Counted from the stretch's first letter, positions 12,636-64,000 are shown. The stretch: 64,000 nucleotides of DNA from a virus (IMGVR_UViG_3300049596_000323:1-64000), one strand, 5' to 3'. Translations and numbers: made by a program. The notes: generated from the sequence alone by a model not told the origin.

Positions 12636-12639
12636 ATGT

Positions 12640-12800
12640 AGTTGTTTTTTATTGGTTTATTTGCAGATGGTTCCCATTGAAGGGAATGCGGTGGGGCATG
12701 GAGCCCAAACCCATCCATCTGTGTAAGAAGATTCCCCCTCGTTGAGGGAGGGGGGAACATCTTCTCTGTGTAGTTTTAAGGATTTTAACCCTTAACTCTT
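12640..12800 (-). other. GC-rich structured intergenic element downstream of the major capsid gene
   Basis: In AT-rich DNA there are three hairpins: TTCCC-ATTGAA-GGGAA, GGGC-ATGGA-GCCC and CCCCCTC...GAGGGGG. Confidence 0.4.
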
Positions 12801-12803
12801 TTA

Positions 12804-14357: not shown

Positions 14358-14393
14358 TTTTTTATTTTTTTAATTAATGTTTATTGAAATTGT

Positions 14394-15680: not shown

Positions 15681-15800
15681 ATGTAGTTGAGTTTTAATTG
15701 GTTTTGTAATGTAAAAGTATACTATAGTAAATTAATATCAAAGAGATGAAGCTCTATATAGATCATTATTTAAGATAATATAGCATTAATATTTTTTACT

Positions 15801-16331: not shown

Positions 16332-16333
16332 AA

Positions 16334-18916: not shown

Positions 18917-20958
18917 TATGTAAACAATTTATTTCTTTTATATTTATTATGAGAGGTTCCAAACATCCCACCTCTTGATTCTGTAAACAGTACGTTTCCT
19001 TTCTTCTTACTAAACATTGCCTTCACTCTATCATCAGATGTTCCACCAATCTTACCCATAATAGGGTCCATCTTTAATGCTTGTGCAATGGCTAACTCTG
19101 CAGCAATGATTCTATCAAAGTTACCTGAATCATTGTATTGTATAATCTCTTCAAGCAATACAGGATCAAATATCTTACTCACCCCTAGAACTTCTCTTAT
19201 AGTATCACCAGCCTCATTTGTTTCTTTGAATATCACAGACTCCATATACTTCTTTAAGCAGGTGTGAAGATACTCAATTATTTTGTCACTTGAACGATGA
19301 ATTCCATAATCTCTTTTAACTGTTGTGTTTGGAACAATTTCTTTAAGCCATTCAGGTTGTTTCTCTAAATAGTGAGCATCCCCTTTGGCCTTCATATATT
19401 CTATAAATGATATATCATCATTCTCACACAGTGTTCTTGCATTGTAATACTTAATAAGAAGTCTAGCTTGTTCTTCCCAAATCTCTTTCTTATCAGGTCT
19501 TGCACAATACGAAGCTACGAACATATCTTGATACTTCTCACCACTAATTTCATGCATTCTTTTATATATGAATACAGAACCAAGTGAACTTGAATACACA
19601 GACTTACCTTGTCTATAAGGGTCAACTCCTGCTACATACAATCCATAAGGAGGGTTTTCTACAGGGAATTCATATATAACTATAGGAGCATCTTTTGTAT
19701 CACTGTTCTTTAATGGAAAGTTAGATATAGGAAGCTTGTCTGTAAACTCATGCTCAATACCATTTTCTCCAGAGAACAATGTAACAGGAGTTCCTGTTCT
19801 TTCTTGTTGTAACAGTCTGGTTTTCTGTCTCTTAGCTGATTCAATATCAAAGATGTTTGTATCCTCATTCAAGAAGATATCATCCACCTCCATTGGGTAG
19901 TACATCTTCTCCTTCAAATAAGCAATTCTATCTCCAGCCTTTTTAAGTCTTTCTAGGTTCTTCTCTGTAATCTCTTTAGCTCTTTCCTCATCACCCACTA
20001 ACATTTCAACGTTATATAAGTCTGATCCAGTAGGCTCATTTAAGAAAGCTCCTAATGTAGATTTCTCTTTAGCTTCCATTCTATATTTAGCTGGGATGAA
20101 TAAGCCATGTATACGCTTATCATCTTTTGCATTATTATATGTAAGGAAATTAAAGTTGTCTACGTCAAACATCAGGGATTTTGCATCCTGAAATTTCTTC
20201 ATATCACCACCAGTGCCTGTGAGAATTGGAGAACATCCCCAACCATAGGGTGTAGTGAAACCTGGTATAGCCGCCTGTAAACCTCTAAGAAAATTTCCTT
20301 TACCAATCTCATCTATAATTAATTTACGTGGTTTTGTACCTGCAATTGCTTCTTCATTATTACCTTCATCAAGGTTACGTATCAGAATGGAAGAGAATGG
20401 GATACGTTCACCAGATTTGGTTTTAATACCTAATGTGACCTGGTTTTTCCAGTTATCCTCAATTCTCTGCCATCTCCAATACTCAGGGATAAAGTTTAAT
20501 CCTTTATCTATTTTATCCGTAATAAGTTTTATATCTGGTGCATTCAAACCAGCAATAATATTCTGGGAGTTCTCATCAAATGTTGCACCCCATGCAATAT
20601 AGGATGCTTCAAGAACGGATTTAGCAAAACGTCTAATACCTAGAATAACCAAGCCCTTTTTTTCCTGTTGGGCTCTATCAATTTCGTTTGTTACCAGCCA
20701 CTCATTATCTCTTAAAAACGGATTAGCATATTTTTGTGCAATTCTTCCTCTATCATCTATGACATCCACCTCAGTGTGCCATATATTTAGGTGCCAATAT
20801 AAAAAGGGGTTGATATACACACCCCCCATCATAGCACCATTTAAACATAATTCTCTATGGAAATCAAAGAACGGTTTACATTCAGCAGATTCCTTATCAG
20901 GAATACGTTTCTGATTTATGAACCAATCTTTGTAATCTATGTTTTGTAGTTCAATCAT
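18916..20958 (-). CDS. terL: terminase large subunit
   Basis: ATPase-like LVILGIRRFAKS and KLIIDEIG, then a nuclease-type LYVAGVDPYRQG; 680 aa, upstream of the portal. Confidence 0.7.
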   Translation of the reverse strand: MIELQNIDYKDWFINQKRIPDKESAECKPFFDFHRELCLNGAMMGGVYINPFLYWHLNIWHTEVDVIDDRGRIAQKYANPFLRDNEWLVTNEIDRAQQEKKGLVILGIRRFAKSVLEASYIAWGATFDENSQNIIAGLNAPDIKLITDKIDKGLNFIPEYWRWQRIEDNWKNQVTLGIKTKSGERIPFSSILIRNLDEGNNEEAIAGTKPRKLIIDEIGKGNFLRGLQAAIPGFTTPYGWGCSPILTGTGGDMKKFQDAKSLMFDVDNFNFLTYNNAKDDKRIHGLFIPAKYRMEAKEKSTLGAFLNEPTGSDLYNVEMLVGDEERAKEITEKNLERLKKAGDRIAYLKEKMYYPMEVDDIFLNEDTNIFDIESAKRQKTRLLQQERTGTPVTLFSGENGIEHEFTDKLPISNFPLKNSDTKDAPIVIYEFPVENPPYGLYVAGVDPYRQGKSVYSSSLGSVFIYKRMHEISGEKYQDMFVASYCARPDKKEIWEEQARLLIKYYNARTLCENDDISFIEYMKAKGDAHYLEKQPEWLKEIVPNTTVKRDYGIHRSSDKIIEYLHTCLKKYMESVIFKETNEAGDTIREVLGVSKIFDPVLLEEIIQYNDSGNFDRIIAAELAIAQALKMDPIMGKIGGTSDDRVKAMFSKKKGNVLFTESRGGMFGTSHNKYKRNKLFT

Positions 20959-21290
20959 TATTTTCTATTTGCTAAAAACTCAGCAGCAGCTCCTGACAAC
21001 TCACCCTTTCCTCTCACTTCCACCTTAGCTTCTTCCATGTTTCTTAGCTTATCTACCACTTCTACTAGAGCAAGGTAGTTCTTCATTGTCTCCTGTACAA
21101 ACTTACCCTGAGCTTCAATACTAGCTATTACCATAGGTAACATTCCTCCTTTAGCTGTAGGCTTCCACTCAATTCTATCTTTCAATTCATGTAGTGGGTT
21201 TGCATTTACATAAGCTTTCCAGGAAACAAGCTGTGCTTCTGCCCATTCAAGCTCTGTGTTTATATATGTAGTTTTTTTAATAGTCGCCAT
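20958..21290 (-). CDS. hypothetical protein
   Basis: 110-aa ORF, stop/start overlap with terL. Confidence 0.4.
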   Translation of the reverse strand: MATIKKTTYINTELEWAEAQLVSWKAYVNANPLHELKDRIEWKPTAKGGMLPMVIASIEAQGKFVQETMKNYLALVEVVDKLRNMEEAKVEVRGKGELSGAAAEFLANRK

Positions 21291-28859: not shown

Positions 28860-29273
28860 GGGGGTGTACTGGCTTTGACAGACATGAGGCTGGTAGTATC
28901 ACATGCAAGCCTTGGAACAGGTAAACAAGTTCTAAACAATAACCGTAAAGAGTCAATCTGAGCGTGTTGAAGAAGGTGCTAGCATTATTGCTATGGCTTT
29001 CGCTTCTGAGTTAGCATTAGCTGCTTAGTCAACTGGGTGGTAACAACCTGGAAACAGAAAGTTACAAGCGTTTTCTCTATTATGTCAAAATAGAGTGGTG
29101 GTAGATAGCAAACCCTGCGATCCCAACTACTGATTAGAAGTGCTTAGGACTATGTAGTAATACATTGTAATTGCTCTAAGTAAATGTACATGAACAGCTT
29201 CAGATCTAAGCATGTAAGAATGGTATTATTATCACTTGTCTGGACAGGGGTTCAACTCCCCTCACCTCCACAA
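28860..29273 (+). ncRNA. ssrA: tmRNA (transfer-messenger RNA), phage-encoded
   Basis: The 5' GGGGGUG pairs with the 3' CACCUCC through a G3-U wobble, as in E. coli tmRNA. The 5' region carries ACUGGCUUUGAC (like GAUUCGAC). The T-arm is GGACAGGGGUUCAACUCCCCU. An internal tag ORF ends ...AFASELALAA with TAG at 29026-29028. Confidence 0.8.
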
Positions 29274-54831: not shown

Positions 54832-55119
54832 ATGCCAAAGTTATTAGGAAATAGAATTTTATTAGAGATGCCTCCACAAGATGACAATAGTAAGTTAATT
54901 GTGGATGACAATACTAAAGAAGCATTACAAAGAGAATTGCTTAACAAAATGTCTAAGTTAAAAGTGTTACAAGTGGGCACTATTGTTACAGAAATCAAAG
55001 CAGGAGACTATGTATTAGTAGATCCAGCAGCTTTAAACAAAGCTACATTAGTCCCAATCAATGAAGATGATGACCGTGCAATCTTGGTATCACCATTTGA
55101 CATAATTCAAATCTGGTAA
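54832..55119 (+). CDS. GroES-like co-chaperonin
   Basis: 95 aa collinear with GroES: LLGNRILLE (LHDRVIVK), KVLQVG (EVLAVG), IKAGDYVLV (VKVGDIVIF), DDRAILVSPFDIIQI (NEEVLIMSESDILAI). Confidence 0.55.
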   Translation: MPKLLGNRILLEMPPQDDNSKLIVDDNTKEALQRELLNKMSKLKVLQVGTIVTEIKAGDYVLVDPAALNKATLVPINEDDDRAILVSPFDIIQIW

Positions 55120-55850
55120 TGAAATACAAAATTGTATTAAAAACTAGTCATAAACATACTGACAGAGTAGATAACTGCCTTGAAACGTGGTTATCTGCTC
55201 TTGATTATGTATGTCTTACAGATAAACTTACAGGGAGACCTAATGAGATATCTTGTTCTGACAAAGATGATTATCAAAGCAATGAAGAGAAGACAGTCAA
55301 CTTCATTAACCTGGTTAGGACTACTGACCAACTTGATGCATATGATTGGTTAGTCTTCATTGATGATGATGCAATACTTAACATTCCTTTATTTGAAGAA
55401 GTGATTACATTCTTTAGTAAAACTGCTGTATACGGATATAGTATGAAAGGGTCTTATACAAAAGAACCTGAACTAGATTATCCATCAGGGGGATGTGGTT
55501 ATTTTATATCTCCACAACTGATTAAAAATTGTCAACCTATGACTGTAAAAGGTTATGGATATGAAGATGTTTGTATAGGCACATGGTTAAAAGAGAACCA
55601 GATAAAAATCTATGATAAGTTTTTAGATTCAAATGTTTTACATAGACTATATCTAAATGGCTGGTTTCCATTTCAAAGATATTTCAATGACCTTTGGAAA
55701 GAAGGAGATAGTTATGTACCTAAGATGCTAGCTGACCTTACAGAAGAAGATGTTACATTTTTACATAAACATGTAACACATCATTATATAAGACATAAAA
55801 GCTTTATGAGATATTTACATACTCTTCTAAATGAAAAAAGCCCCAAATAG
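55119..55850 (+). CDS. GT31/Fringe-like glycosyltransferase
   Basis: DxD motif LVFIDDDAI, PSGGCGYFIS (GGAGYVLS-like), YEDVCIGTWL (EDVxxG). Confidence 0.55.
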   Translation: MKYKIVLKTSHKHTDRVDNCLETWLSALDYVCLTDKLTGRPNEISCSDKDDYQSNEEKTVNFINLVRTTDQLDAYDWLVFIDDDAILNIPLFEEVITFFSKTAVYGYSMKGSYTKEPELDYPSGGCGYFISPQLIKNCQPMTVKGYGYEDVCIGTWLKENQIKIYDKFLDSNVLHRLYLNGWFPFQRYFNDLWKEGDSYVPKMLADLTEEDVTFLHKHVTHHYIRHKSFMRYLHTLLNEKSPK

Positions 55851-55864
55851 GGGCTTTTCTTTTA
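55835..55864. terminator. bidirectional terminator between convergent blocks
   Basis: AAAAAGCCCC-AAAUA-GGGGCUUUU, with A and U runs on both sides. Confidence 0.65.
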
Positions 55865-55996
55865 CTCCCATAAGGAGCAGACTTATAATACTGAGACTAT
55901 AAGGGGGGAATTTATGACTTCTTTAAGGGGCCCTGTCTAGAATGGGTTACCACAACCTGAGCGTGCAGTTCTTATGGGATGCAGGAGAAGTACTCT

Positions 55997-56155
55997 TTAT
56001 TTTGAAAGTCTCTTCTGCTTCATAGGAAGCATAGGACTCTTTCTTTGTAACTTTGTATCAGACTCCTTCATATAATTACCATTGATTGGTTTAGGAGCTG
56101 GTACCTTTGGTGCTTTACGAGGTGCACCTGATTTCTTAGCTTTACCAGCAGTCAT
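55997..56155 (-). CDS. small basic protein (MTAGKAKKSGAPRKAPK...)
   Basis: 52-aa ORF not in the track; last gene of the basic cassette. Confidence 0.3.
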   Translation of the reverse strand: MTAGKAKKSGAPRKAPKVPAPKPINGNYMKESDTKLQRKSPMLPMKQKRLSK

Positions 56156-56156
56156 A

Positions 56157-56654
56157 TTACTTGCAGCCATACTTACATTTTTTCATAGCACCACCCATTT
56201 TCATCTTAGTAGCACCTAATTGTTTATCTTTCTTTAAAACAGCTTTACCTTTAGCACCTGCTAGTGTTCTTTTTTGCACTGTGGTGTAAGCACCTTTAGG
56301 ATCTACAGGACCAACACGCTTGTTAGAAGCTTTTAATCCAGATAGACTACCGCCAGATTTGTACTTTTTAACAGCACCACCAGTTTTCATTTCTTTTTTC
56401 TTAGCTAAAACAGTGTATGCAGTAGAACCACTTTTTCTATCTTCAATTTTGTTTCCTTCTTTTTTATGGTAAGCACGTTCAAAGTTAGCTGCTTTTTTCC
56501 AATTAGCCATTGCTGTACTATCTGCTTTTCTACGTCTTTCATCACCTAAAGCAGGATTTTTTCTTTCATCTTCTGTCTGTTTATTAACTTTAGAAGCCCA
56601 TGAAGGAACATCACCACCGCCTTGATATTTTTTTGCTTTTTTAACAGTTGCCAT
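56157..56654 (-). CDS. Lys-rich basic protein, MATVKK family, member E
   Basis: Starts MATVKKAKK; two MK(T/M)GGA(V/M)KK repeats; pI clearly basic. Confidence 0.55.
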   Translation of the reverse strand: MATVKKAKKYQGGGDVPSWASKVNKQTEDERKNPALGDERRRKADSTAMANWKKAANFERAYHKKEGNKIEDRKSGSTAYTVLAKKKEMKTGGAVKKYKSGGSLSGLKASNKRVGPVDPKGAYTTVQKRTLAGAKGKAVLKKDKQLGATKMKMGGAMKKCKYGCK

Positions 56655-56655
56655 T

Positions 56656-57018
56656 TTATTTCTTTTTAATAGATTTTTTAATCATACCACCTTTTTTCAT
56701 CATAGATGTACCAGACATAGCTTTTTTCTTAGCACCTGCAATCTTATCTGCAAATGTAGCATTAGGGTTTTTGTCAACACCAGCTTTTACTGATAACATA
56801 CCAAAAGAAGAACCATCTTTAGATTTTTTCATTGGTAATTTAGGTAATGAATCAAAACTTTTCTTGTCAAAATTCATACCTGTTTTACGATTAGTTGAAT
56901 CTGATTTTTTGTTAGCTTCTTTTATTTTTGATACCATTTCCTTACCTTCTCTTGCATCTTTTTTCATTTTAAAAGCCATACCATCTTGAGCTTTTTTCAT
57001 CTTTTTAACTGTTGCCAT
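56656..57018 (-). CDS. Lys-rich basic protein, MATVKK family, member D
   Basis: Starts MATVKKMKK; MKKGGMIKK repeat. Confidence 0.55.
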   Translation of the reverse strand: MATVKKMKKAQDGMAFKMKKDAREGKEMVSKIKEANKKSDSTNRKTGMNFDKKSFDSLPKLPMKKSKDGSSFGMLSVKAGVDKNPNATFADKIAGAKKKAMSGTSMMKKGGMIKKSIKKK

Positions 57019-57023
57019 TTTAA

Positions 57024-57407
57024 TTATTTTTTAGATTTAGCTTTAATTTTTTTCTCTTGTTTTAACATTTGTGCTGTAGGTTTCTTTCCAGATCCTTTAG
57101 CAGCTCTGATGTTATCCCAAAGTCCTCTTTGAGAATAAGAACCATCAGCACGTTTTAACATACCACCTGCTTTCATTTTCTTTTTAGGAACAGCTTTTTC
57201 TTTAAGAGGATTGTTTTTAATAGCAGGATTTTTCTTAGGAGCATATTTACCAAGACCAGCTTGTCTGTCTAAAGCATCAGCCATATCAGATTGATGTTTA
57301 TCCATTGCTTCTTTCTTGTATAGTCTATTAGTCATTTCACCACGGACATATCCTTTAGGGACATCTTTACCGCTTTGAGCTTTTGCTACTTTCTTTGCTG
57401 TTGCCAT
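57024..57407 (-). CDS. Lys-rich basic protein, MATVKK family, member C
   Basis: Starts MATAKKVAK; MKAGGMLKR. Confidence 0.55.
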   Translation of the reverse strand: MATAKKVAKAQSGKDVPKGYVRGEMTNRLYKKEAMDKHQSDMADALDRQAGLGKYAPKKNPAIKNNPLKEKAVPKKKMKAGGMLKRADGSYSQRGLWDNIRAAKGSGKKPTAQMLKQEKKIKAKSKK

Positions 57408-57419
57408 AATATTATTGTT

Positions 57420-57722
57420 TTAACAATTCCATTTTCTTAATGCTAATGTTTTCCTTGTTGGTTCACCATTAGGTTTTTTTGCAGGTCCTTTAACTCCTGA
57501 CATTCTTGCACAAAAAGATTTACGTCTACCTGCAGCCTTAGAACCAGCTTTAAGTTTAGAAGGTTTAGTTGTGACAGCCATCTTTAATTTAGAACCTGGA
57601 TTAGCAGCTCTATAGCTTGCTACACCTTTTCTATTAAGACCACCCTTTGGATCTTTCCCTTCAGAACGAGTCCAAGCAGGTGTGCTCCCACCAGATTTCA
57701 TAACCTTTTTAACTGTTGCCAT
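57420..57722 (-). CDS. Lys-rich basic protein, MATVKK family, member B
   Basis: Starts MATVKKVMK; GGSTPAWT parallels GGGDVPSWA in member E. Confidence 0.55.
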   Translation of the reverse strand: MATVKKVMKSGGSTPAWTRSEGKDPKGGLNRKGVASYRAANPGSKLKMAVTTKPSKLKAGSKAAGRRKSFCARMSGVKGPAKKPNGEPTRKTLALRKWNC

Positions 57723-57916
57723 TATTTCTTTTTAACAGGTTTAACTTTAAATATATCTTTCTTAACCTTATCCATCCACATCTTTTCTTTCTTAGGCTTC
57801 ATAGCTCTTTTAACTTTACTAAAAGCATCTATCTTGCCACCTTTCTTTAATGATGTACCATCTTTTTTAATTAGATGACCATTTGGAACAGGAGTAGGTT
57901 TTTTTACAGTTGCCAT
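57722..57916 (-). CDS. Lys-rich basic protein, MATVKK family, member A
   Basis: Starts MATVKKPTP; LKKGGKI; about 30% Lys. Confidence 0.5.
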   Translation of the reverse strand: MATVKKPTPVPNGHLIKKDGTSLKKGGKIDAFSKVKRAMKPKKEKMWMDKVKKDIFKVKPVKKK

Positions 57917-58062
57917 TATTTACGTTTCTTAGCCATCGCTTTGAAAGTCTTAGCTAATGCTTTTCTTTTAGGAGTGCATGTAGCTTTAGTCATTGGAGTG
58001 CAATAACCCTTATGTTTAGGGTTAACAGCATCTTGTATCCAATTTTTCTTAGCAGTGGCCAT
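57917..58062 (-). CDS. small basic protein, MATAKK family, member F
   Basis: 48-aa ORF MATAKKNWIQDAVNPKHKGYCTPMTKATCTPKRKALAKTFKAMAKKRK, not in the track. Confidence 0.4.
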
Positions 58063-58072
58063 GATATATTAT

Positions 58073-58342
58073 TTATAAACTTGCTTTAGGAACTTCTGGA
58101 GCTTCTACAATAATGCCAATTTCAACATTTCTTGCTAAAATAGCTTCTACTTTATCTGCAGTTTCTGCAGCTAAGAACAATGCTTGTGCTTCTTGAGTTG
58201 ATGTAACACCACGTAAAGCATTTAAAATTGCACCAAACTCTGCACCAGAAACTACAATGCTAACATCACCAGCCCATGTATATTTCTTATTAGGATCAAA
58301 TTTTGGAGCTTCTTGTCCAACTTCTTGAATTTCTTCTGACAT
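58073..58342 (-). CDS. hypothetical acidic protein
   Basis: 89-aa ORF. Confidence 0.35.
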   Translation of the reverse strand: MSEEIQEVGQEAPKFDPNKKYTWAGDVSIVVSGAEFGAILNALRGVTSTQEAQALFLAAETADKVEAILARNVEIGIIVEAPEVPKASL

Positions 58343-58383
58343 AACTTTATTTTTTTTGGTTTAATAGCGAAGATATATATTTG

Positions 58384-58674
58384 TTACGAATCTTCCAAAT
58401 TTATTTCAAACGTAATAGTAGATGAATTTTTAATACTTTTAGATAACTCTAGTCTGATTTTAAACATATTATGAAACTTCAATAGCTCCTGCAAAAGAGA
58501 CTCAGTGTATTTTGGTACACTAGGAGCCAATCTAAAATGATAGGAGCGAGGATTTTTAACTATCTCCAAAGTAGATAGTTCATCTATTGAGTCAATTATT
58601 CCCTCTAGGTGAGCAAAATAAATCATTTCATTATCTTGCATCACCTTAGGGAAGTATTTTTTGTTTATCTGCAT
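58384..58674 (-). CDS. hypothetical protein
   Basis: 96-aa ORF. Confidence 0.35.
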   Translation of the reverse strand: MQINKKYFPKVMQDNEMIYFAHLEGIIDSIDELSTLEIVKNPRSYHFRLAPSVPKYTESLLQELLKFHNMFKIRLELSKSIKNSSTITFEINLEDS

Positions 58675-59078
58675 TAAGACAGAGTTAATAGATATTTCGT
58701 TTTAGCTGCTTCACCGCTTAATGCATCAGCTAAATTAGCTATATCGTGATAGCTGTTTGCTTCAGCATAACTTTTTAATGAAGATGCAAAAGATAAAAGA
58801 TTTGAAACACACTCGTTTCCTGTACAATTTGTAAGAGGTTCTATCTTGTATGGAGCAGGACGTTTGCCTGTATAGCCCATAAGTTTCTCTATTACACCAT
58901 CTTTGAAATCATGTACATAATCATACAATCCTCCTAAAGCTTGGTGCTCAGCATAACTCTTTGTTTGCCAATGAGTTAAGTGCAATTGCTCATGAAAATA
59001 CGTAAGCTTCCCAGCTATTGTTTCCAAGTTTAATTCTCCTGATTTCATCATCTCATCAGGGAACAATGATTTTGCCAT
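58674..59078 (-). CDS. hypothetical protein with weak Dps/ferritin-like pattern
   Basis: HLTHWQTKSYAEHQAL...DGVIEKLMGYTG loosely parallels Dps HWNMRGANFIAVHEM...DTMAERAVQLGG. Confidence 0.3.
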   Translation of the reverse strand: MAKSLFPDEMMKSGELNLETIAGKLTYFHEQLHLTHWQTKSYAEHQALGGLYDYVHDFKDGVIEKLMGYTGKRPAPYKIEPLTNCTGNECVSNLLSFASSLKSYAEANSYHDIANLADALSGEAAKTKYLLTLS

Positions 59079-59093
59079 GTTGTTTGGTTTTTA

Positions 59094-59294
59094 CTATTCT
59101 GGAATAGCTGTAGTTGTAGTACTAGTTGTACTAGTTGTACTAGTTGTAGGCACATACTCACAACATTCTGTTATAGCGATTTCATGCCATCTTCCAACTG
59201 TAGGTTTCTTTCTTCTAAAGATAAGACTACCTGCAACTACTCTACCACTACCATCATAGCGGACGTAAGCTTTTAAATTTTGATTGCTTCCCAT
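59094..59294 (-). CDS. small protein with poly-Thr tail
   Basis: Ends PTTSTTSTTSTTTTAIPE. Confidence 0.3.
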   Translation of the reverse strand: MGSNQNLKAYVRYDGSGRVVAGSLIFRRKKPTVGRWHEIAITECCEYVPTTSTTSTTSTTTTAIPE

Positions 59295-59313
59295 AATTTT
59301 GTTTTTAATTAGG

Positions 59314-60330
59314 TTAATAGTTAAGGTTATATTTGTTTTTTAATTCTAATAGTTTTTTAACATAGTAATATGTACCATGTTTTTTAGACTCATCACTAGT
59401 ATGCACTACATACATGTGACTATCACTGAAAGGATCTTTACCTGTGTGGTATGTTCCTTTATAGAACGCAGGGTAGCCATACATTGTTTTAGCTGTCACT
59501 CCTGCATTATGAAAGAGTCCTAGTTTCTCCACCTTTTCAATTGGGTCTGTTGCCCAAGAGAAATCCATCTCAGGGATGTTTTTAGTTTCTTGGTCTCTTA
59601 ACCAAAGGTTCCATAACACGGCCCACATATCTGCACACCAGCTTTGAAATCCTTTATCTTCACTACCAAAGAACTCTTTGTTTATATGTTGAAGATAGCT
59701 ACGAATAACAATACAGTCATTCATCACCTTCTTCCAGAAGGTAGCATCCACATTCTTTAAGAAGTATTGAGCTCCTCCTGAATGTTCGTTGTTAGCTTCA
59801 GCTATTTCTCTATTGATTCCTATTAAGCTTGTAAGCTCAGCTAGGACATCTCTAGTTTTGTATTCTTCTAGCTTAGCAGGAAGAACATCTTTTATTTTAC
59901 TATCAAAATATGAAGCATTTATGTAGCTGTTTGTGTCAGACAAGTAGCAGACTTCATCGTCTCTATACTTCTCTACATCAAATTTATCTGTAAACAGAAT
60001 ATCACAGTCACAGTAGAACACTGCTTTGCTTATCATCTCAGGGTGTTCCTGAAAGTATCTCATCAAGACATATGGACGTAAAACAGGAATATAAACTCCT
60101 AAGTATTTACTTACATCTCCTGTGTCTTTATAGAAAGCAAACTCTGCTTCTGGATACAGATCAACTATCTTTTGCCATTTATCACTTTTTTCTCTAAAGC
60201 TAGGAGTGTATATTAACACAATTGCTTTGTCCAAGTGCCCAATTTCTTTTAAACTTTCTAACCAGGCATGTACTTGCCAAGTATAGTAAGTATCATCTGG
60301 CTGAGCACAGATAAACTTTAAATCCTTCAT
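59314..60330 (-). CDS. DxD-motif glycosyltransferase candidate
   Basis: VFYCDCDILF DxD-like motif; 338 aa. Confidence 0.35.
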   Translation of the reverse strand: MKDLKFICAQPDDTYYTWQVHAWLESLKEIGHLDKAIVLIYTPSFREKSDKWQKIVDLYPEAEFAFYKDTGDVSKYLGVYIPVLRPYVLMRYFQEHPEMISKAVFYCDCDILFTDKFDVEKYRDDEVCYLSDTNSYINASYFDSKIKDVLPAKLEEYKTRDVLAELTSLIGINREIAEANNEHSGGAQYFLKNVDATFWKKVMNDCIVIRSYLQHINKEFFGSEDKGFQSWCADMWAVLWNLWLRDQETKNIPEMDFSWATDPIEKVEKLGLFHNAGVTAKTMYGYPAFYKGTYHTGKDPFSDSHMYVVHTSDESKKHGTYYYVKKLLELKNKYNLNY

Positions 60331-60359
60331 ATGTAGTTATTGTTGGTTTAGATAAATAC

Positions 60360-60557
60360 TTATGCTTGAAGACCAGCTAATAAAGCTTTCTTAACATCAA
60401 GTTGAGCTTGTAATTCAGCTTCATAATCTGCTGGAGTTTTTGCTGCTTCTTCAGCTGCTTTTGCTGCAATAAGTGCATCAATCTGAGCCTTTCTTGCTTC
60501 TTGAATTGCTTTATCTGTTGCTTCTAATTCTGCTTGTAACGCTTGTAAATTTGCCAT
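60360..60557 (-). CDS. Ala-rich coiled-coil protein
   Basis: 65 aa MANLQALQAELEATDKAIQEARKAQ... Confidence 0.35.
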   Translation of the reverse strand: MANLQALQAELEATDKAIQEARKAQIDALIAAKAAEEAAKTPADYEAELQAQLDVKKALLAGLQA

Positions 60558-60568
60558 TTTTATTTTAT

Positions 60569-60724
60569 TTAAGGGGTTGTTGTAGTGGTAGTTGTGGTAG
60601 TTAAGCCTGCAGTGTTTTTAACTACAGCTCCAACTTGTCCAATCAACTGTTCCATTTGTTTTGAGATGTTCCACAATTGTTGTGAAACTGGATCTTGCCC
60701 TATGGGCCTTGCTGGTATTGCCAT
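60569..60724 (-). CDS. small protein with poly-Thr C-terminus
   Basis: 51-aa ORF ending TTTTTTTTTP, not in the track. Confidence 0.2.
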   Translation of the reverse strand: MAIPARPIGQDPVSQQLWNISKQMEQLIGQVGAVVKNTAGLTTTTTTTTTP

Positions 60725-60872
60725 GTTATAAAAAATTAATTTTCAAAGATATGTTGTTTTTTACTATAATCAATGAGGTTTATAAAATTGGTATAACCAA
60801 ATTAATTAACTCAACTCTAATCAAGTTAGTTATAGATTTTAGTTTAGAAATGTTTGTATATTGGTAGTATTA

Positions 60873-61001
60873 CTACTTACCTTGACCTTTATATTTCTTT
60901 ACTGGTTTGTCTTTTGGACCTTGTGATTTAGCAGCTTTGCCACCTTTACGTTTTCCAAAATTTACTTTTTGTGAGGATGATCCTCCTTTAGCCTTTGCCA
61001 T
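60873..61001 (-). CDS. small Gly/Lys-rich basic protein
   Basis: Internal Met start (MAKAKGGSSSQKVNFGKRKGGKAAK...) chosen to avoid overlap; resembles the MATxKK cassette. Confidence 0.35.
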   Translation of the reverse strand: MAKAKGGSSSQKVNFGKRKGGKAAKSQGPKDKPVKKYKGQGK

Positions 61002-61009
61002 GTTGATTT

Positions 61010-61399
61010 TTATCTTTTTATAGTGAAGAATTGTAATACTATAACACCAACCAATACCATTTTTTGAGCAAACTCCCATCCGCTATTATCTTTAGCAATA
61101 GGGATACGCATATTTAATCTTTCATCATATCTTGCTCTGTACTGATTTGTAACTGCATGCAAGCTATCGTATGTTATTTTGTCTTTGCTTATAATGCTAT
61201 CTTTTATATAAACATACGTCTTCAACGAATCAATTGTAGTTTGATTAGATTGAAACTTATCATTTATAGTGTTTGCCTGTTTCAAGGTCATAACTACAAC
61301 AGAATCATTTCCTATTTTCTTAACGATTGGATACTGGCAATAACCTAAATTTGACACCAGTGTCACTAAGATTACTATCAAGTTTACTTTTAACATCAT
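61010..61399 (-). CDS. o-spanin-like lipoprotein
   Basis: Signal peptide MMLKVNLIVILVTLVSNLGYC with a lipobox Cys; its 5' end overlaps the upstream gene in another frame. Confidence 0.4.
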   Translation of the reverse strand: MMLKVNLIVILVTLVSNLGYCQYPIVKKIGNDSVVVMTLKQANTINDKFQSNQTTIDSLKTYVYIKDSIISKDKITYDSLHAVTNQYRARYDERLNMRIPIAKDNSGWEFAQKMVLVGVIVLQFFTIKR

Positions 61400-61673
61400 T
61401 TAATTCAGATTTTAATGAACTAACCTCTGCTTTTAACGATACTATTTGGTTAACTGCTTGGTTTACTATTTTTGTTTGTGCTTTGGTAGCACCTTCTTGT
61501 ACAGCTGCACCAGCCTTATTGTTTTCTGAAACTTTGTTAAGTAGAAGTTCAAATTCCTTATCTTCCTTAGCTGTTCCATCAACTTGCTGAGCTGTACCAA
61601 TTTGACATCCATATGCAAATAATACTAATATATATAATATATTTTTCATATTATTTAAGTTTTTTGATTGCAC
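61320..61673 (-). CDS. i-spanin-like protein
   Basis: N-terminal hydrophobic segment then a coiled coil (SLKAEVSSLKSELNDVKSKLD); its 3' end overlaps the downstream lipoprotein gene. Confidence 0.4.
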   Translation of the reverse strand: MQSKNLNNMKNILYILVLFAYGCQIGTAQQVDGTAKEDKEFELLLNKVSENNKAGAAVQEGATKAQTKIVNQAVNQIVSLKAEVSSLKSELNDVKSKLDSNLSDTGVKFRLLPVSNR

Positions 61674-61953
61674 CTAATTGTTGTAGAGTTTGTAATTGAG
61701 TGGTAGTCACAGCTTTAGTACTGTCACTAACTCTTAATGCTTCCTGCACCTTATCTAATCTACCTTCCACCTTTTCAATACGTACATTCTGAGAAGTTGC
61801 CTGCTCTTTGAATGTTGTACGAACATCTATGTATAGATATGAAATAGCAATGAGCACCAAGAAAAGGGTGCCCACTATTGGGTTTTTAGCAAACTCCTTA
61901 AAACTTATAGGTAAAGGATTTGCTGATACATTTAAGTCTTTTTTCGCTGCCAT
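61651..61953 (-). CDS. membrane protein (holin or antiholin candidate)
   Basis: Single transmembrane helix IVGTLFLVLIAISYLYI plus a coiled coil. Confidence 0.35.
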   Translation of the reverse strand: MAAKKDLNVSANPLPISFKEFAKNPIVGTLFLVLIAISYLYIDVRTTFKEQATSQNVRIEKVEGRLDKVQEALRVSDSTKAVTTTQLQTLQQLGAIKKLK

Positions 61954-62345
61954 TATCTTAATTTGTTTTTGTATTCTAATACAGCTAAACGCTGTTTGAT
62001 CTCTGCTCTTTCAGTTGCTGCAGATTCTTTAATATCAGTCATTTTTTGTATGATTTCCATCTTCATATCAGCTCTGCTTTGTGCTGCTGCCGCTCTAATA
62101 GCCTCCATCTCAATAGTAGTTCCCTGTGGAGGAATAGCTTTATTTTCAGTAGTTACTACCACTGCTATCTTATTATTTAAAACAGTTATCTGGTTGTTTA
62201 AGGTACTCACTTGAGTCAATAACCATCCAATAGCTGATACACAAATAGGTAAAAGTGTGAAAACTAACTTCTCTACCAACCCTGACTTACTTTTATCAGC
62301 TGCCAGTTGCTCAGATATCTTTTCATTCCTTTCTTCTTGTGTCAT
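61953..62345 (-). CDS. membrane protein (holin candidate)
   Basis: Transmembrane helix LVFTLLPICVSAIGWLL; directly downstream of the endolysin. Confidence 0.35.
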   Translation of the reverse strand: MTQEERNEKISEQLAADKSKSGLVEKLVFTLLPICVSAIGWLLTQVSTLNNQITVLNNKIAVVVTTENKAIPPQGTTIEMEAIRAAAAQSRADMKMEIIQKMTDIKESAATERAEIKQRLAVLEYKNKLR

Positions 62346-62950
62346 TATATACTTCCGTTTAATAGGTTATTGTATTCGTTGAAATGTTTTATACGATCTG
62401 GTAGACCAATTGTTCCACCATTAACACGTTTAGTCACCTTAGTAACCACAGCATCTGTAGCCCCCTCATCAGCAATCTTATGTAATCCATTCTTATGGAA
62501 GAACCAAGCTGCAGATAAAAGTGGGTACTTTGTAGCTACAAGATCTGGACTAACTAATATATCATCTTCTACCACCTTATCAAAAGCTGTGTAGTTATCT
62601 TTACCAGTTAACTGTATGTAACCACGTCCTCTAAACTTGTATCCTTCTCCACTAGCTTGAGGACCATTACCCATACGGTTAGCGTAAACAATGTTAGCAA
62701 TCTTTTCAGGCTTGCGTTCATATTCCTTAGCACTCACAGGAGTAAAGTATTTTTTAAAGATGCTCTGTAAACCAGCAGCACCGTAGTTTAAGTTCTCTGA
62801 AACAGCTTTAAAGCCACCAGATTCATGTCCACATTGAGCCAAGAAATGAGCTAAACGTAAAGGAGTATTGATCTCAAACTTCTCTTGTACAGCAGGGATT
62901 TGAGCAATCACTGTGTCAGGAATGTGTCCTTTTAATTTATCTAAATTCAT
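62345..62950 (-). CDS. GH19-family endolysin
   Basis: AHFLAQCGHESGGF and GRGYIQLTGKDNY are the catalytic motifs of glycoside hydrolase family 19 (chitinase-like lysozymes). Confidence 0.8.
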   Translation of the reverse strand: MNLDKLKGHIPDTVIAQIPAVQEKFEINTPLRLAHFLAQCGHESGGFKAVSENLNYGAAGLQSIFKKYFTPVSAKEYERKPEKIANIVYANRMGNGPQASGEGYKFRGRGYIQLTGKDNYTAFDKVVEDDILVSPDLVATKYPLLSAAWFFHKNGLHKIADEGATDAVVTKVTKRVNGGTIGLPDRIKHFNEYNNLLNGSI

Positions 62951-63108
62951 TTTTTCTTTTTCTTTTTATAGTTAACTTTTTCTATTTTCTCTTCAGAACC
63001 ATTAACTACAGCTTTAACTTCTTTCTCTAAGCTTTTGATAGTTAATAGTTTTTTAGCAAAAGAGCCTTCACCAAAAAGGCTTTTGACAAGTTCAATAATT
63101 TTTTTCAT
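62947..63108 (-). CDS. small Lys-rich protein translationally coupled to the endolysin
   Basis: 53-aa ORF not in the track; its stop overlaps the endolysin ATG (ATGA). Confidence 0.3.
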   Translation of the reverse strand: MKKIIELVKSLFGEGSFAKKLLTIKSLEKEVKAVVNGSEEKIEKVNYKKKKKK

Positions 63109-63113
63109 GTGTT

Positions 63114-63713
63114 TTATTTAATTTTCCAATATGATTGAAAACCATATATAACTTGACTATTATTGTTGATTCCAATATTTAATCCAAATATTTTATCTTT
63201 TTTAGATTTATACAATAGCCCTCCTTGTAAAATATTCAAACTATTCCTATCACTTGCAATACCCCCCCCTATAAATAGAGCACCTTTATTAGGAGCATAC
63301 TTAGTAATGGTGGTTGTTACAGTGACTGTAGGAACCTTATAGTTGTATTTATAAGATCTATTTAGTAATTCATTTTTATACACTGTATCAGCTACAGCTA
63401 CATAACCTAATGTATCCAACTTCACTGTGTCAGCATAAACATTCTTAGCTAAAAAATCTGATACTAACGCTTCATACTGAAGCTTAAGAGTTAAATAGTT
63501 TGTGTCTGCTATATATTCTGGAGGAGTGGCAATAGTGTCATGTATTGTCTCTTTGATCTTTATCTTCTTAACAATCAATGAGTCATGAACCTGCCAAGTA
63601 GTGTCATGTACAGTTACTATTTCAGACTTTTTGTCTATGTAAGTGCACCCATCATTTTGAAAAAATATAAATGCTAGTAAAACAACAATTACAACACTAA
63701 GTAGTTTATTCAT
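63114..63713 (-). CDS. secreted or lipoprotein
   Basis: Signal peptide MNKLLSVVIVVLLAFIFFQNDGC. Confidence 0.4.
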   Translation of the reverse strand: MNKLLSVVIVVLLAFIFFQNDGCTYIDKKSEIVTVHDTTWQVHDSLIVKKIKIKETIHDTIATPPEYIADTNYLTLKLQYEALVSDFLAKNVYADTVKLDTLGYVAVADTVYKNELLNRSYKYNYKVPTVTVTTTITKYAPNKGALFIGGGIASDRNSLNILQGGLLYKSKKDKIFGLNIGINNNSQVIYGFQSYWKIK

Positions 63714-63999
63714 TATCTTCAGTTTGGTTTCTCTTATTAATAAATTTATCTATAGAAGCAATACCAAAACAAGCTATAGTCAAGATTTTAAATGAGTCAT
63801 ATATGAACTCATTAACTAACAACGGTTTATTCATAGCCCCTGTAACAATATCTGTCAAAGCAAATATTATCATGATTACAAAAGAAGCAAAGCCAATTAC
63901 AGCCTTCTCATTGATTGAGTTGCTGTCATCAAATAAATCAGAAAAGAATTTCTTCATATTTTTTATTTTTAATTGTTTTTTTGTTAGGTAGAATAGCAT
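63706..63999 (-). CDS. small membrane protein
   Basis: Transmembrane helix VIGFASFVIMIIFALTDIV; the start is probably at MKKFFSDL. Confidence 0.35.
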   Translation of the reverse strand: MLFYLTKKQLKIKNMKKFFSDLFDDSNSINEKAVIGFASFVIMIIFALTDIVTGAMNKPLLVNEFIYDSFKILTIACFGIASIDKFINKRNQTEDNE

Positions 64000-64000
64000 A

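What the first reader, a model, noticed from the sequence alone, without database searches (positions are those of the whole stretch)
55997..58062. Tandem cassette of six or seven paralogous Lys-rich genes sharing the N-terminus MAT(V/A)KK
Seven back-to-back minus-strand genes (48 to 165 aa) encode very basic K/G/A-rich proteins. Five begin with an almost identical MATVKK or MATAKK heptapeptide but diverge afterwards. A short internal module (L/M)K(K/T/A)GG(A/M/K)(V/I/L)K(K/R) recurs within and across the members. An eighth member, MAKAKGG..., lies at 60873-61001. T4 internal proteins IPI-III offer a parallel: small basic proteins with a shared N-terminal capsid-targeting sequence, packaged and ejected with the DNA. 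This cassette could therefore be a family of packaged DNA-binding or ejected proteins, for example histone-like condensers or anti-defence cargo. I do not recognise it as a described family.
Basis: seen in the sequence. Interest (0 to 1): 0.75.

Follow-up and report, generated by a model that had tools for sequence, protein, structure and literature searches.

The report
Shuffled cassette of basic phage cargo-like modules
A wild relative of the gut crAss phages carries a row of tiny, very positively charged genes that are not duplicates of one another; they are a fixed kit of unrelated mini-proteins behind a common N-terminal leader, and the kit is probably packed into the virus particle with the DNA.

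Summary
Seven back-to-back minus-strand genes lie at 55997-58062. Six of them, not five, start with MAT(V/A)KK. The (L/M)KxGG motif is about ten times commoner than chance.

The genes are not paralogues. With the leader removed they share no detectable similarity. In 52 related phage genomes the same distinct modules (A, B, C, D, E, F, H, sometimes I and G) each occur at most once. They are fused, split and reordered into 28 architectures, and H is always last. Fused modules are nearly always joined by [M/L/Q]K-x-GG.

The host genome is an environmental crAss-like phage of about 115 kb. Two modules have informative relatives:
- Module C (m3) is Pfam DUF6321. This domain is also the C-terminus of a roughly 520-aa protein annotated as a virion protein in T4-like cyanophages.
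- Module E (m4, C-terminal part) occurs inside long proteins encoded directly after or just downstream of the ring and muzzle genes of other crAss-like phages. That is the cargo-protein-1 position. There it is fused to crAss_CARG1, SLT or ART-PolyVal domains.

Best reading (about 0.5): these are small, largely disordered, basic cargo or internal proteins that are packaged and probably ejected with the DNA. The leader/linker motif would then be an incorporation or processing signal and also a recombination junction. Packaging itself is untested.

The parts
57916..58062 (-). m1, 48 aa: leader MATAKK plus module A (NWIQ..KGYCTP..CTPKRKALAKTFK, two Cys)
   Evidence: Module A is present in 47 of 52 complete cassettes and is never duplicated. 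All 120 best listed of its 308 database relatives are proteins of 46-84 aa. dN/dS is 0.03 against L004.
57722..57916 (-). m2, 64 aa: leader MATVKK plus module B (PTPVPNGHLIKKDGTSLKKGG) plus a unique Lys-rich tail. The start overlaps the m1 stop (TAATG).
   Evidence: Module B is present in 52 of 52 cassettes. The tail (B2) matched only the window's own copy in the iterated search.
57420..57722 (-). m3, 100 aa: leader MATVKKVMKSGG plus module C, which is Pfam DUF6321
   Evidence: PF19846, E=4.7e-21, 75.7 bits against a cut-off of 28.5. phrog_4689, E=3.6e-27. AlphaFold2 gives pLDDT 72 with three short helices and a disordered leader at residues 1-12.
57684..57836 (-). Indel between two GG-coding sites: the m2 tail, the m2 stop and the m3 leader. 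It is absent from the near-identical relative L003, where B and C form one 115-aa gene.
   Evidence: The blastn breakpoints fall at win 57837 / L003 12490 and win 57683 / L003 12495, while the flanks are 97% identical. The L003 protein reads ...SLKNGG|STPAWTRSEGK.
57024..57407 (-). m4, 127 aa: leader MATAKKVAKAQSG plus module D (residues 14-77), linker KKKMKAGG, and module E (residues 83-127, MLKRADGSYSQRGLWDNIRAAKGSGKKPT..)
   Evidence: Module E is present in 52 of 52 cassettes. The m4 search returned 1030 clusters at 50% identity with E<=1e-3, and most of the 150 listed matches fall on module E. Module E also occurs inside long cargo-position proteins.
56656..57018 (-). m5, 120 aa: leader MATVKKMKKAQDG plus module I, ending in MMKKGGMIKKSIKKK
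   Evidence: Module I is present in 18 of 52 cassettes.
56353..57001 (-). Replaced segment (m5 and the N-terminal G module of m6). It has no counterpart in L003, which carries a different 55-aa gene at this place.
   Evidence: One search shows no blastn match here, while the flanks are 95-97% identical. One search gives the L003 gene list.
56157..56654 (-). m6, 165 aa: leader MATVKKAKKYQGGG, module G (14-88), linker MKTGGAVKKYKSGG, module F (103-152, SLSGLKASNKRVGPVDPKG..), then MKMGGAMKKCKYGCK
   Evidence: F is present in 51 of 52 cassettes and G in 2. The C-terminal CKYGC tail recurs in 30 ORFs of the related loci. AlphaFold2 gives pLDDT 60 and pTM 0.26, with one long helix at 25-65 and the rest coil.
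55997..56170 (-). m7, 57 aa: module H (MTAGKAKKSGAPRKAPKV...PMKQKRLSK). It lacks the MATVKK leader and overlaps the end of m6 by 14 nt.
   Evidence: H is present and last in 52 of 52 complete cassettes and is never fused. dN/dS is 0.17-0.26.

Best explanation
The cassette is a kit of about eight unrelated, small, very basic and largely disordered protein modules. It belongs to an environmental crAss-like phage.

Each gene consists of a common N-terminal leader, MAT(V/A)KK, usually continued as xKK(A/Y)QxG(G). One or two modules follow. When two modules share a gene they are joined by a [M/L/Q]K-x-GG linker that resembles the leader.

The modules belong to the repertoire of proteins that tailed phages pack inside the particle and deliver with the DNA, known as cargo, internal or 'polyvalent' proteins. 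In this lineage they are encoded as separate mini-genes at the end of a minus-strand block of lysis and other non-replication genes, instead of inside one long cargo protein.

The most likely mechanism is as follows. The genes are translated as a coupled operon and the products are incorporated into the head. There, with a net charge of about +143 per set, they sit on the packaged DNA. They then leave with the DNA at infection, shielding it or escorting it.

The leader/linker motif has two likely roles. As a peptide it would be an incorporation or processing signal. As DNA it is the short homology at which modules are fused, split and reordered.

Shown here: module identity, single-copy status, shuffling, motif enrichment, and the links of modules E and C to cargo and virion proteins. 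Inferred: packaging of these particular small proteins, DNA binding, ejection, and the role of the leader.
For: 1. Phage context. Terminase, portal, major head protein and tail fibres lie at 5757-20958, and an endolysin lies at 62345-62950. The portal is 25-27% identical to Crassvirales portals. Relatives are contigs of 100-119 kb.

2. Fixed kit. In 52 complete cassettes, B, E and H occur in 52, C and F in 51, A in 47 and D in 36. No module is ever duplicated. There are 28 architectures and H is always last.

3. Junction rule. Internal modules are preceded by [MLQ]K[NSDA]GG. The same modules, when they come first in a gene, follow MATVKK..GG or just MAK.

4. Module E in cargo proteins. Module E occurs inside proteins of 413-1460 aa that carry SLT, ART-PolyVal or crAss_CARG1 domains. 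Where context could be read, these are encoded directly after or just downstream of the ring and muzzle genes (L092, L093, L094). That is the position of crAss001 gp45, a cargo protein detected by mass spectrometry and seen bound to the portal (PMC10172136).

5. Module C in virion proteins. DUF6321 is the C-terminus of the 'structural protein T4-GC0119' of T4-like cyanophages. That protein is annotated 'virion protein' in S-SCSM1, a phage with a 45-protein virion proteome. More distant relatives of this phage (L045) carry further mini-genes. One of them matches internal parts of the PHROG families that also hold DUF6321 at their C-terminal end (phrog_727 and phrog_3477). A second resembles, by eye only, another internal stretch of the cyanophage protein.

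6. The motif is shared with cargo-like proteins. [YFMLQ]xxGG occurs 104 times in 19 long E-bearing proteins, against 26.8 +/- 4.8 expected.

7. The leader is conserved as a peptide. Among 84 distinct gene starts the codons vary synonymously (ACT 39 / ACA 40; AAA and AAG mixed). The leader is kept in front of completely unrelated middle segments. Major head protein, portal and the other late genes do not use it.

8. Structure predictions show little fixed fold. That suits proteins which must thread through a portal.
Against: - There is no direct evidence that these small proteins are in virions.
- The only isolated relative checked that has a virion proteome, Cellulophaga phage phi14:2, lacks the cassette altogether.
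- crAss001 gp45 itself matches none of the modules.
- Only two of the roughly nine modules, C and E, have relatives in virion or cargo proteins. Among the 120 best-scoring relatives listed for A and for F/G, all are short hypothetical proteins.
- The cassette is not beside the head or muzzle genes. It sits after a lysis cassette, a Dps-like gene and other non-structural genes.
- Long E-bearing cargo proteins do not begin with the MATVKK leader, so the leader is not a general cargo tag.
- In T7-like phages the DUF6321 gene sits between the scaffold and capsid genes. That slot also holds hli and psbA in cyanophages, so position there proves little.
- The S-SCSM1 'virion protein' label for ORF29 comes from the record's annotation. 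The paper gives the per-ORF list only in a figure.
Confidence: 0.5

Rival explanations
1. These are non-virion late proteins that act inside the infected cell. Small basic nucleic-acid binders could condense or organise phage or host DNA, or bind ribosomes or RNA. The cassette would then be an intracellular 'histone-like' or translation-modulating set.
For: The cassette lies among non-structural genes: a lysis cassette, a Dps-like protein and phrog_4417. The phage also carries a tmRNA, which hints at interest in translation. Most modules (A, B, D, F, H) have no link to virion proteins. The proteins are highly basic and predicted to be largely disordered.
Against: Module E is embedded in cargo-position proteins of other crAss-like phages. 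Module C is embedded in a protein annotated as a virion protein. No member reaches any Pfam ribosomal or nucleoid-protein family; for the window proteins the only Pfam match is DUF6321.
Confidence: 0.2
2. The shared leader and GG linkers have no function as a peptide signal. MATVKK would be a favourable A-rich start context for genes without a Shine-Dalgarno site that are re-initiated one after another. The GG linkers would be flexible spacers. Both stay similar only because recombination between them keeps spreading them.
For: The upstream sequence is A-rich with a purine at -3 and no Shine-Dalgarno site. In 82 of 84 leader-bearing genes a stop-codon triplet (any frame) lies within 12 nt upstream, and 18 of them overlap the previous stop as TAATG. 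The breakpoints between near-identical genomes fall exactly at GG-coding sites. The same modules work with just MAK in front of them.
Against: Major head protein, portal and the other late genes have the same A-rich upstream context but not the leader. Leader codons vary synonymously while the peptide is kept. The leader is conserved in front of unrelated sequences across representatives of many 50%-identity clusters. The motif shows position-specific preferences: Y, M or F three residues before GG, and Ile two residues after GG, each enriched 4-5 fold.
Confidence: 0.3
3. The genes are mini-polyproteins. A protease cuts after the GG of leaders and linkers and releases the bare modules. Parallels are adenovirus core proteins VII and mu cut by adenain, ASFV polyproteins cut at GG-X, and T4 internal proteins cut after their targeting peptide.
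For: GG lies 0-3 residues before the first conserved residue of nearly every internal module. Stand-alone versions start almost at that same residue (MAK|SPAW.., MAKQ|MIKR..). Fusion or fission of modules appears to be tolerated freely. The motif is strongly enriched in the related long cargo-like proteins.
Against: No peptidase Pfam hit was found in about 40 window ORFs, although about 50 kb of the genome lies outside the window. The spacing differs from the adenain consensus (M/I/L)XGG: here two residues separate the hydrophobic residue from GG. The distance from GG to the module start varies (GG|, GGK|, GGKQ|, GGKVK|). The crAss001 structural paper does not mention proteolysis or cleavage (0 occurrences).
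Confidence: 0.2
4. This is the first reader's genetic model: a family of paralogues made by tandem duplication of one small basic gene and then diverged after the N-terminus.
For: The hexapeptide is shared and the composition is similar. Uncorrected blastp between members gives weak hits driven by the leader and by composition.
Against: With the leader removed and composition correction on, no pair reaches E<0.1. Profile-profile probabilities are below 4% for 27 of 28 module pairs. Each module is an orthologous group found at most once per genome in 52 genomes.
Confidence: 0.03

Closest known systems
Crassvirus cargo proteins (crAss001 gp45 'C1' and gp46; Pfam crAss_CARG1 PF25725), Bayfield et al. 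2023, PMC10172136
   Same: The phage order is the same. Module E of the cassette occurs, at 57-82% identity over the matched stretch, inside proteins encoded directly after or just downstream of the ring and muzzle genes. Two of these (P0253, P0265) carry the crAss_CARG1 portal-binding domain. Those proteins use the same Y/M-K-x-GG junctions.
   Different: The cassette proteins are 48-165 aa, have no CARG1 domain or transmembrane helix, and lie elsewhere in the genome. crAss001 gp45 matches none of the modules. Packaging of the small proteins has not been shown.
T4 internal proteins IPI, IPII, IPIII (and Alt), with their capsid-targeting sequence
   Same: Both are several unrelated small basic proteins that share a short N-terminal peptide. 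The T4 proteins are packaged in the head and injected with the DNA (own knowledge; Alt as summarised in PMC5512222).
   Different: There is no sequence relation. The T4 peptide is cut by the gp21 prohead protease after L/I-x-E, and no such protease or site is seen here. Here the leader-like motif also recurs internally as a linker, and the modules are shuffled between genes.
'Structural protein T4-GC0119' of T4-like cyanophages (S-P4 gp060, S-SCSM1 gp029; the matching PHROG families are phrog_10346 and phrog_727)
   Same: It ends in DUF6321, the same domain as m3. At least one of its internal modules occurs as a separate mini-gene in distant relatives of this phage: the L045 DACYHKVK..SAYASGA gene matches phrog_727 and phrog_3477. 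It is annotated as a virion protein.
   Different: It is one polypeptide of about 520 aa, its modules are rich in Cys pairs, and it has no MATVKK leader and no GG linkers. Only module C is shared with the window's own cassette.
Polyvalent proteins of phages and conjugative elements (Iyer et al. 2017, PMC5512222)
   Same: The logic is beads on a string, with free recombination of unrelated modules, and the proteins are predicted to be packaged and injected with the DNA. One E-bearing protein contains the ART-PolyVal domain.
   Different: Polyvalent proteins are large and combine enzymatic domains. Here the beads are tiny, non-enzymatic and basic, and most are unbundled into separate genes.
Adenovirus core proteins VII, V and mu with the adenain protease
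   Same: Both are sets of small, highly basic proteins associated with the packaged genome. In adenovirus the precursors are cut next to Gly-Gly (own knowledge).
   Different: This is only an analogy. The consensus differs, since (M/I/L)XGG has one residue less than the motif here. No protease was found and there is no homology.
Small-gene trio between the scaffold and capsid genes of T7-like pelagiphages and cyanophages (Eistla gp43-45, Jormungand gp20-21, HTVC119P gp27-28, S-TIP37_27/28)
   Same: It contains DUF6321 (strong match) next to a roughly 48-aa 'GLYANIH' protein and a roughly 34-aa Lys-rich 'KGGQKKLP..LK.KI' protein. The reduced cassettes of distant relatives (L043, L058) have the same trio, E, C and a 'LKKLP..VRNKMGY' protein.
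   Different: Homology of the 'GLYANIH' proteins to module E is not established: hhalign gives probability 14%. These genes are unannotated or labelled hypothetical, and no function is known.

Membership tests
Pfam DUF6321 (PF19846) | Match to the family model above its gathering score | tested here: met
   m3 scores 75.7 bits against a cut-off of 28.5, E=4.7e-21, covering model positions 1-72 of 72. None of the other seven proteins matches.
Crassvirus cargo protein 1 (gp45-like) | Presence of the portal-binding crAss_CARG1 domain (PF25725) | tested here: not met
   No cassette protein has any Pfam hit except DUF6321. CARG1 is found only in long E-bearing proteins from other phages.
Crassvirus cargo protein 1 (gp45-like) | Gene located directly downstream of the muzzle gene | tested here: not met
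   The cassette follows lysis, Dps-like and other small genes. No muzzle or ring gene lies next to it in the window. The long E-bearing proteins do occupy that position or lie just downstream of it.
Crassvirus cargo protein 1 (gp45-like) | Presence in purified virions | not testable with these tools
   This needs proteomics on an isolate of this lineage.
T4-type internal proteins with capsid-targeting sequence | Shared short N-terminal peptide on otherwise unrelated small basic proteins | tested here: met
   Six of the seven genes start with MAT[VA]KK, and this start is unique to them in the window. The bodies are unrelated.
T4-type internal proteins with capsid-targeting sequence | Removal of the peptide by a prohead protease at a defined site (L/I-x-E in T4) | tested here: inconclusive
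   No peptidase family was hit in about 40 window ORFs, but only 64 kb of about 115 kb is visible. There is no L/I-x-E after the leader. A GG site is present, but cleavage cannot be tested here.
Polyvalent proteins (Iyer et al. 2017) | Two or more domains of disparate, mostly enzymatic, activity in one large polypeptide | tested here: not met
   The cassette proteins are 48-165 aa and have no enzymatic domain. Module E does occur in such proteins (ART-PolyVal and SLT).
Adenovirus-type core proteins processed by adenain | Cleavage consensus (M/I/L)XGG-X or (M/I/L)XGX-G, plus a C5 protease | tested here: not met
   The hydrophobic residue lies three positions before GG, not two, and no protease was found. 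The consensus is quoted from own knowledge.
Tandem paralogue family | Detectable homology between members beyond the shared N-terminus | tested here: not met
   With the leader removed and composition correction on, blastp gives no pair below E=0.1. hhalign probabilities between modules are below 4%, except D/I.
Host-derived ribosomal or nucleoid proteins | Match to a ribosomal or nucleoid protein family | tested here: not met
   There is no Pfam hit at E<=1 for seven of the eight proteins. Profiles of C, E and A have no relatives in the PDB.

The most novel reading that the evidence does not exclude
The MATVKK..(A/Y)QxGG leader and the [Y/M/F]-K-x-GG-x-[I/L/V] linkers may be one short linear signal used across aquatic crAss-like phages. 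It would load protein cargo into the HK97-fold head, as encapsulin cargo-loading peptides do, or mark maturation cleavage sites, as adenovirus core proteins cut by adenain do. The seven to nine basic modules would then form a defined protein coat on the packaged genome, a phage 'core-protein' system co-ejected with the DNA. The signal's coding sequence would double as the recombination site that lets the phage re-bundle its cargo at will.
Probability: 0.15. Interest if true: 0.85.

Novelty: new variant of a known kind. Interest (0 to 1): 0.6.

Why it matters
Crassvirales are among the most abundant phages known. Their virions hold several megadaltons of protein cargo, and how that cargo is selected and loaded is unknown.

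This cassette offers a simple system for studying that problem. It has short, separable modules, a common leader, and a recurrent junction motif that also marks the long cargo proteins of related phages. If the motif is a loading or processing signal, it could be tested directly, and it could be used to load foreign proteins into phage heads.

The finding also gives a first functional context, as virion or cargo proteins, to DUF6321 and to module E. DUF6321 occurs in 537 phage records of the collection searched. Module E accounts for most of about a thousand 50%-identity clusters.

It shows in addition that trypsin-based virion proteomics may systematically miss a class of Lys-rich internal proteins.

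Finally, it is a clear natural example of gene fusion, fission and reordering at a defined short junction between genomes that are otherwise 97% identical.

Tried and rejected
- **Paralogy.** Rejected by leader-trimmed blastp and by module-versus-module hhalign.
- **Similarity to isolated phages.** blastn finds only the DUF6321 stretch. tblastn with the concatenated members, and with module E alone, finds nothing.
- **Cassette in the isolated crAss-like Cellulophaga phage phi14:2.** It is absent, and that genome has no other Lys-rich mini-genes either.
- **Modules in crAss001 gp45.** No significant hit. My recollection that gp45 residues 385-425 resemble module A was not borne out.
- **Homology between module E and the pelagiphage 'GLYANIH' mini-proteins.** Inconclusive; hhalign gives probability 14%.
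- **Fold recognition.**
  - The AlphaFold2 model of m3 is of moderate quality (pLDDT 72) and has no Foldseek match in the PDB.
  - The m6 model is of low confidence.
  - PDB profile searches with C, E and A are empty or noise.
- **Family libraries.** Pfam and PHROGs give nothing for modules A, B, D, E, F, H and J.
- **Protease hunt.** No peptidase family in about 40 window ORFs.
- **Literature.** 'DUF6321' returns no paper.
- **Per-ORF mass-spectrometry list for S-SCSM1 ORF29.** Not found in the held text.
- **Partner domains for A and for F/G.** Among the 120 best-scoring relatives listed for each, all are short hypothetical proteins.
- **Promoter and terminator scan.** The cassette shows nothing above chance. 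The only hit is a hairpin at 55836-55858 that belongs to the convergent gene.
Full report
**What is there.**
The region 55997-58062 holds seven tightly packed minus-strand ORFs of 48, 64, 100, 127, 120, 165 and 57 aa, called m1-m7 here.
- Stops and starts overlap or lie within 12 nt of each other: TAATG twice, and a 14-nt overlap between m6 and m7.
- Lys+Arg makes up 23-35% of each protein. Net charge is +13 to +30 each, about +143 for the whole set.
- Six proteins (m1-m6) begin with MAT[VA]KK. Among 2740 Met-started frames in the window, only these six do.
- [YFMLQ]xxGG occurs 8 times against 0.77 expected, and 0 of 1000 shuffles reach 8.
- The genes are under purifying selection, with dN/dS of 0.03-0.26 against relatives.

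**Genomic setting.**
The window is part of a tailed-phage genome.
- Large terminase, portal, major head protein and tail fibres lie on the minus strand at 5757-20958.
- A replication block (DnaB, SF2 helicase, UDG, GHKL ATPase, RNR-like protein, RecA) lies on the plus strand.
- A second minus-strand block at 55997-64000 holds an endolysin with membrane proteins, a Dps-like protein, phrog_4417 and then the cassette, which ends that block.
- The portal is 25-27% identical to Crassvirales portals.
- Starts have an A-rich upstream context, a purine at -3 and no Shine-Dalgarno site. I take this as typical of Bacteroidota, from my own knowledge.
- No close isolate exists in the phage collection.
- IMG/VR holds at least 281 related stretches, many on contigs of 100-119 kb.
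- The exact m3 and m6 proteins occur on 66 and 27 contigs, the longest being 115,200 bp.

**The members are not paralogues.**
I split the window proteins into modules and searched them iteratively against every plus-strand ORF of 80 related loci.
- The modules are:
  - A (m1);
  - B (m2, N-terminal part);
  - C (m3);
  - D and E (m4);
  - I (m5);
  - G and F (m6);
  - H (m7).
- Each module is an orthologous group. In 52 complete cassettes, B, E and H occur in 52, C and F in 51, A in 47, D in 36, I in 18 and G in 2.
- No module is ever present twice.
- The modules are distributed over genes in 28 different architectures, including D+E, D+F, D+A, F+A, B+C and B+E, as well as each module alone.
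- H is always last and never fused.
- With the leader removed, no pair of window proteins reaches E<0.1. Profile-profile probabilities between modules are below 4% for every pair except D/I, whose profiles overlap.

Only the leader, the linkers and the composition are shared.

**Junction rule.**
When a module is not first in its gene it is almost always preceded by [M/L/Q]-K-[N/S/D/A]-G-G. Examples are ..MKNGG|STPAWQRK..KMQNGG|SLSGLKAS and ..MKAGG|MLKRADGS. When the same module comes first it follows MATVKK(..)GG or simply MAK. Internal linkers therefore look like leaders; compare m6 'MKTGGAVKKYKSGG|SLSGL' with L022 'MATVKKSGG|SLSGL'.

Alignments of representatives from many 50%-identity clusters show two conserved ends around an unrelated middle. 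The leader MATxKKxKKAQxG and the KxKxGG-plus-module end are nearly invariant, and the 60-100 residues between them are completely unrelated.

**Hot spot of rearrangement.**
Against L003, whose flanks are 95-97% identical, the cassette shows three changes:
- an indel bounded by two GG-coding sites (window 57684-57836), which turns the separate m2 and m3 into one B+C gene in L003;
- a patch of only 83% identity over C, D and E;
- a replaced segment (window 56353-57001).

Leader codons vary synonymously among 84 distinct gene starts (ACT 39 / ACA 40; AAA and AAG mixed), so the peptide, and not just the DNA, is maintained. Major head protein, portal and the other late genes share the A-rich upstream context but not the leader.

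**What the modules are related to.**

*Module C.*
- It is Pfam DUF6321 and phrog_4689.
- DUF6321 occurs in 537 phage records, mostly marine cyanophages and pelagiphages.
- In T4-like cyanophages it is the C-terminal domain of a modular protein of about 520 aa ('structural protein T4-GC0119').
  - That protein lies just after the small terminase gene in S-P4 and upstream of the large terminase gene in S-SCSM1.
  - It is annotated 'virion protein' in S-SCSM1.
  - The S-SCSM1 paper reports 45 virion proteins by mass spectrometry (PMC9602691).
  - I could not read the per-ORF list.
- In T7-like pelagiphages and a T7-like cyanophage, a DUF6321 mini-gene and one or two other Lys-rich mini-genes sit between the scaffold and capsid genes. 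That slot also holds hli and psbA in cyanophages, so the position alone is weak evidence.

*Reduced cassettes in more distant relatives.*
- L043 and L058 carry E, C and a 'LKKLP..VRNKMGY..CKYGCK' protein.
- L045 carries C, a protein of that 'LKKLP' type, and two extra mini-genes.
- One extra gene, with DACYHKVK..SAYASGA, matches phrog_727 and phrog_3477. These PHROG families also hold DUF6321 at their C-terminal end.
- The other, with LKRWF..PCG..KCRPS, resembles an internal stretch of the cyanophage virion protein only by eye; it matched no PHROG family.

*Module E.*
- An exhaustive search with m4 found 1030 clusters at 50% identity with E<=1e-3, and most of the 150 listed matches fall on module E.
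- Nineteen of the listed hits are proteins of 413-1460 aa.
- Pfam finds SLT lytic transglycosylase in four of them, ART-PolyVal in one and crAss_CARG1 in two.
- Module E is again preceded by Y/F/M-K-x-GG in them.
- Where the contigs could be read, these proteins are encoded as follows:
  - directly after the muzzle gene in L092;
  - after ring genes and a muzzle-sized gene in L093;
  - one small gene further downstream in L094.
- That is the position of crAss001 gp45. gp45 is cargo protein 1, which is found in virions by mass spectrometry and is seen bound to the portal and inside the tail barrel (PMC10172136).
- ART-PolyVal and SLT are typical of proteins predicted to be packaged and injected with the DNA (PMC5512222).
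- In the 19 long proteins [YFMLQ]xxGG occurs 104 times against 26.8 +/- 4.8 expected. Y, M or F is enriched 4-5 fold three residues before GG, and Ile is enriched 5 fold two residues after GG.

*The other modules.* Among the 120 best-scoring relatives listed for A and for F/G, all are short hypothetical proteins.

**Structure.**
AlphaFold2 gives m3 a moderate model (pLDDT 72, three short helices, disordered leader). That model has no Foldseek match in the PDB. m6 is mostly low-confidence coil with one long helix (pLDDT 60). PDB profile searches for C, E and A find nothing meaningful.

**Interpretation.**
The best-supported reading is that the cassette is an unbundled set of cargo or internal-protein modules. 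These would be small, basic, flexible proteins made from a translationally coupled operon, incorporated into the head, lying on the packaged DNA, and leaving with it at infection.
- Shown: the module structure, the single-copy kit, the junction rule, the rearrangements, and the links of E and C to cargo-position and virion proteins.
- Inferred: that these particular small proteins are packaged, bind DNA and are ejected.
- The role of the leader/linker motif is open. It could be an incorporation signal, a cleavage site or an inert spacer.
- Its coding sequence clearly serves as the junction at which modules are recombined.
- I put the cargo reading at about 0.5, and cleavage at GG at about 0.2 as a sub-hypothesis.
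- An intracellular, non-virion role gets about 0.2.

Several observations count against over-confidence:
- phi14:2 lacks the cassette;
- crAss001 gp45 lacks the modules;
- no protease was found in the window;
- long cargo proteins lack the MATVKK start;
- most modules have no virion link.

**Comparison and novelty.**
The cassette works most like the T4 internal proteins, which are unrelated small basic proteins behind a shared N-terminal peptide. It also works like crassvirus cargo and 'polyvalent' proteins, which are beads-on-a-string modules delivered with the DNA. It is a member of none of these families by their defining features.

Only m3 belongs to a described family (DUF6321), and that family has no known function. 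A full-text search for DUF6321 found no paper.

Three features make it a new variant of a known kind: fragmentation into mini-genes, the common leader with leader-like GG linkers, and free fusion, fission and reordering.

Noticed in passing
window 28860-29273 (+): There is a phage-borne tmRNA gene. Rfam RF00023 scores 88 bits against a gathering score of 47, and ARAGORN reads the tag peptide VKSQSERVEEGASIIAMAFASELALAA.
   Followed up: no
It is a separate, strongly conserved basic protein of 40-44 aa (MAKAKG..FGKRKGGKA.K..GPKDK..KKYRGQGK) just downstream of the lysis genes, with 61 hits among the related loci. Its C-terminal end resembles a 42-aa ORF next to the M15 peptidase of pelagiphage HTVC010P (..KKYNRQGR).
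   Followed up: partly
window 59094-59294 (-); L051 11013-17090, L054 11026-13194, L009, L022: A 66-aa protein carries a conserved N-terminal domain (LKAYVRYDGSGRVV.GSLI.RRKKP.VG.W.EI..ECC) followed by a poly-Thr/Ser tail. Relatives carry 1-4 tandem copies, with C-terminal extensions up to 1292 aa. This is a genuine shared-N-terminus paralogue family next to the cassette and may be a variable surface or fibre protein.
   Followed up: partly
window 15801-16331 (-): An SPFH/Band-7 domain protein (PF01145, E=1.6e-26) is encoded between the portal gene and the putative scaffold and major head genes. That is an unusual place for this family.
   Followed up: no
window 58674-59078 (-): A Dps-like or starvation-inducible DNA-binding-type protein (phrog_858, E=2.7e-14) lies about 600 nt upstream of the cassette and is conserved at that place in relatives.
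   Followed up: no
window 56157-56185 (-) and relatives: In the relatives inspected, the gene just before module H ends in ..KCKYGC(K/N), and 30 ORFs in the related loci end this way. In the window this tail overlaps the start of H in another frame. It may be a conserved Cys-x3-Cys tail, or a constraint imposed by the overlap.
   Followed up: partly
window 20961-21290 (-): A 110-aa ORF starting MATIKKTTYINTELEW lies just upstream of the large terminase gene. It is the only other MAT.KK start in the window, it is not basic, and it may be the small terminase subunit.
   Followed up: no
window 54832-55119 (+) and 55836-55858: A GroES-like co-chaperonin ORF and a glycosyltransferase-like ORF converge on the cassette. 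The hairpin at 55836-55858 is the only terminator-like site in the region. A short G+C-rich non-coding stretch (55850-55997) separates the convergent blocks.
   Followed up: no
L087 2212-2337; L089 2877-2978: Unannotated ORFs of about 33-41 aa, rich in Lys (..KGGQKRLPAALKAKI.. and ..KKQKTLPASLKNKI..), sit directly after the scaffold gene in pelagiphages Jormungand and HTVC119P. They match Eistla gp43, so the small-gene trio is conserved but under-annotated.
   Followed up: partly
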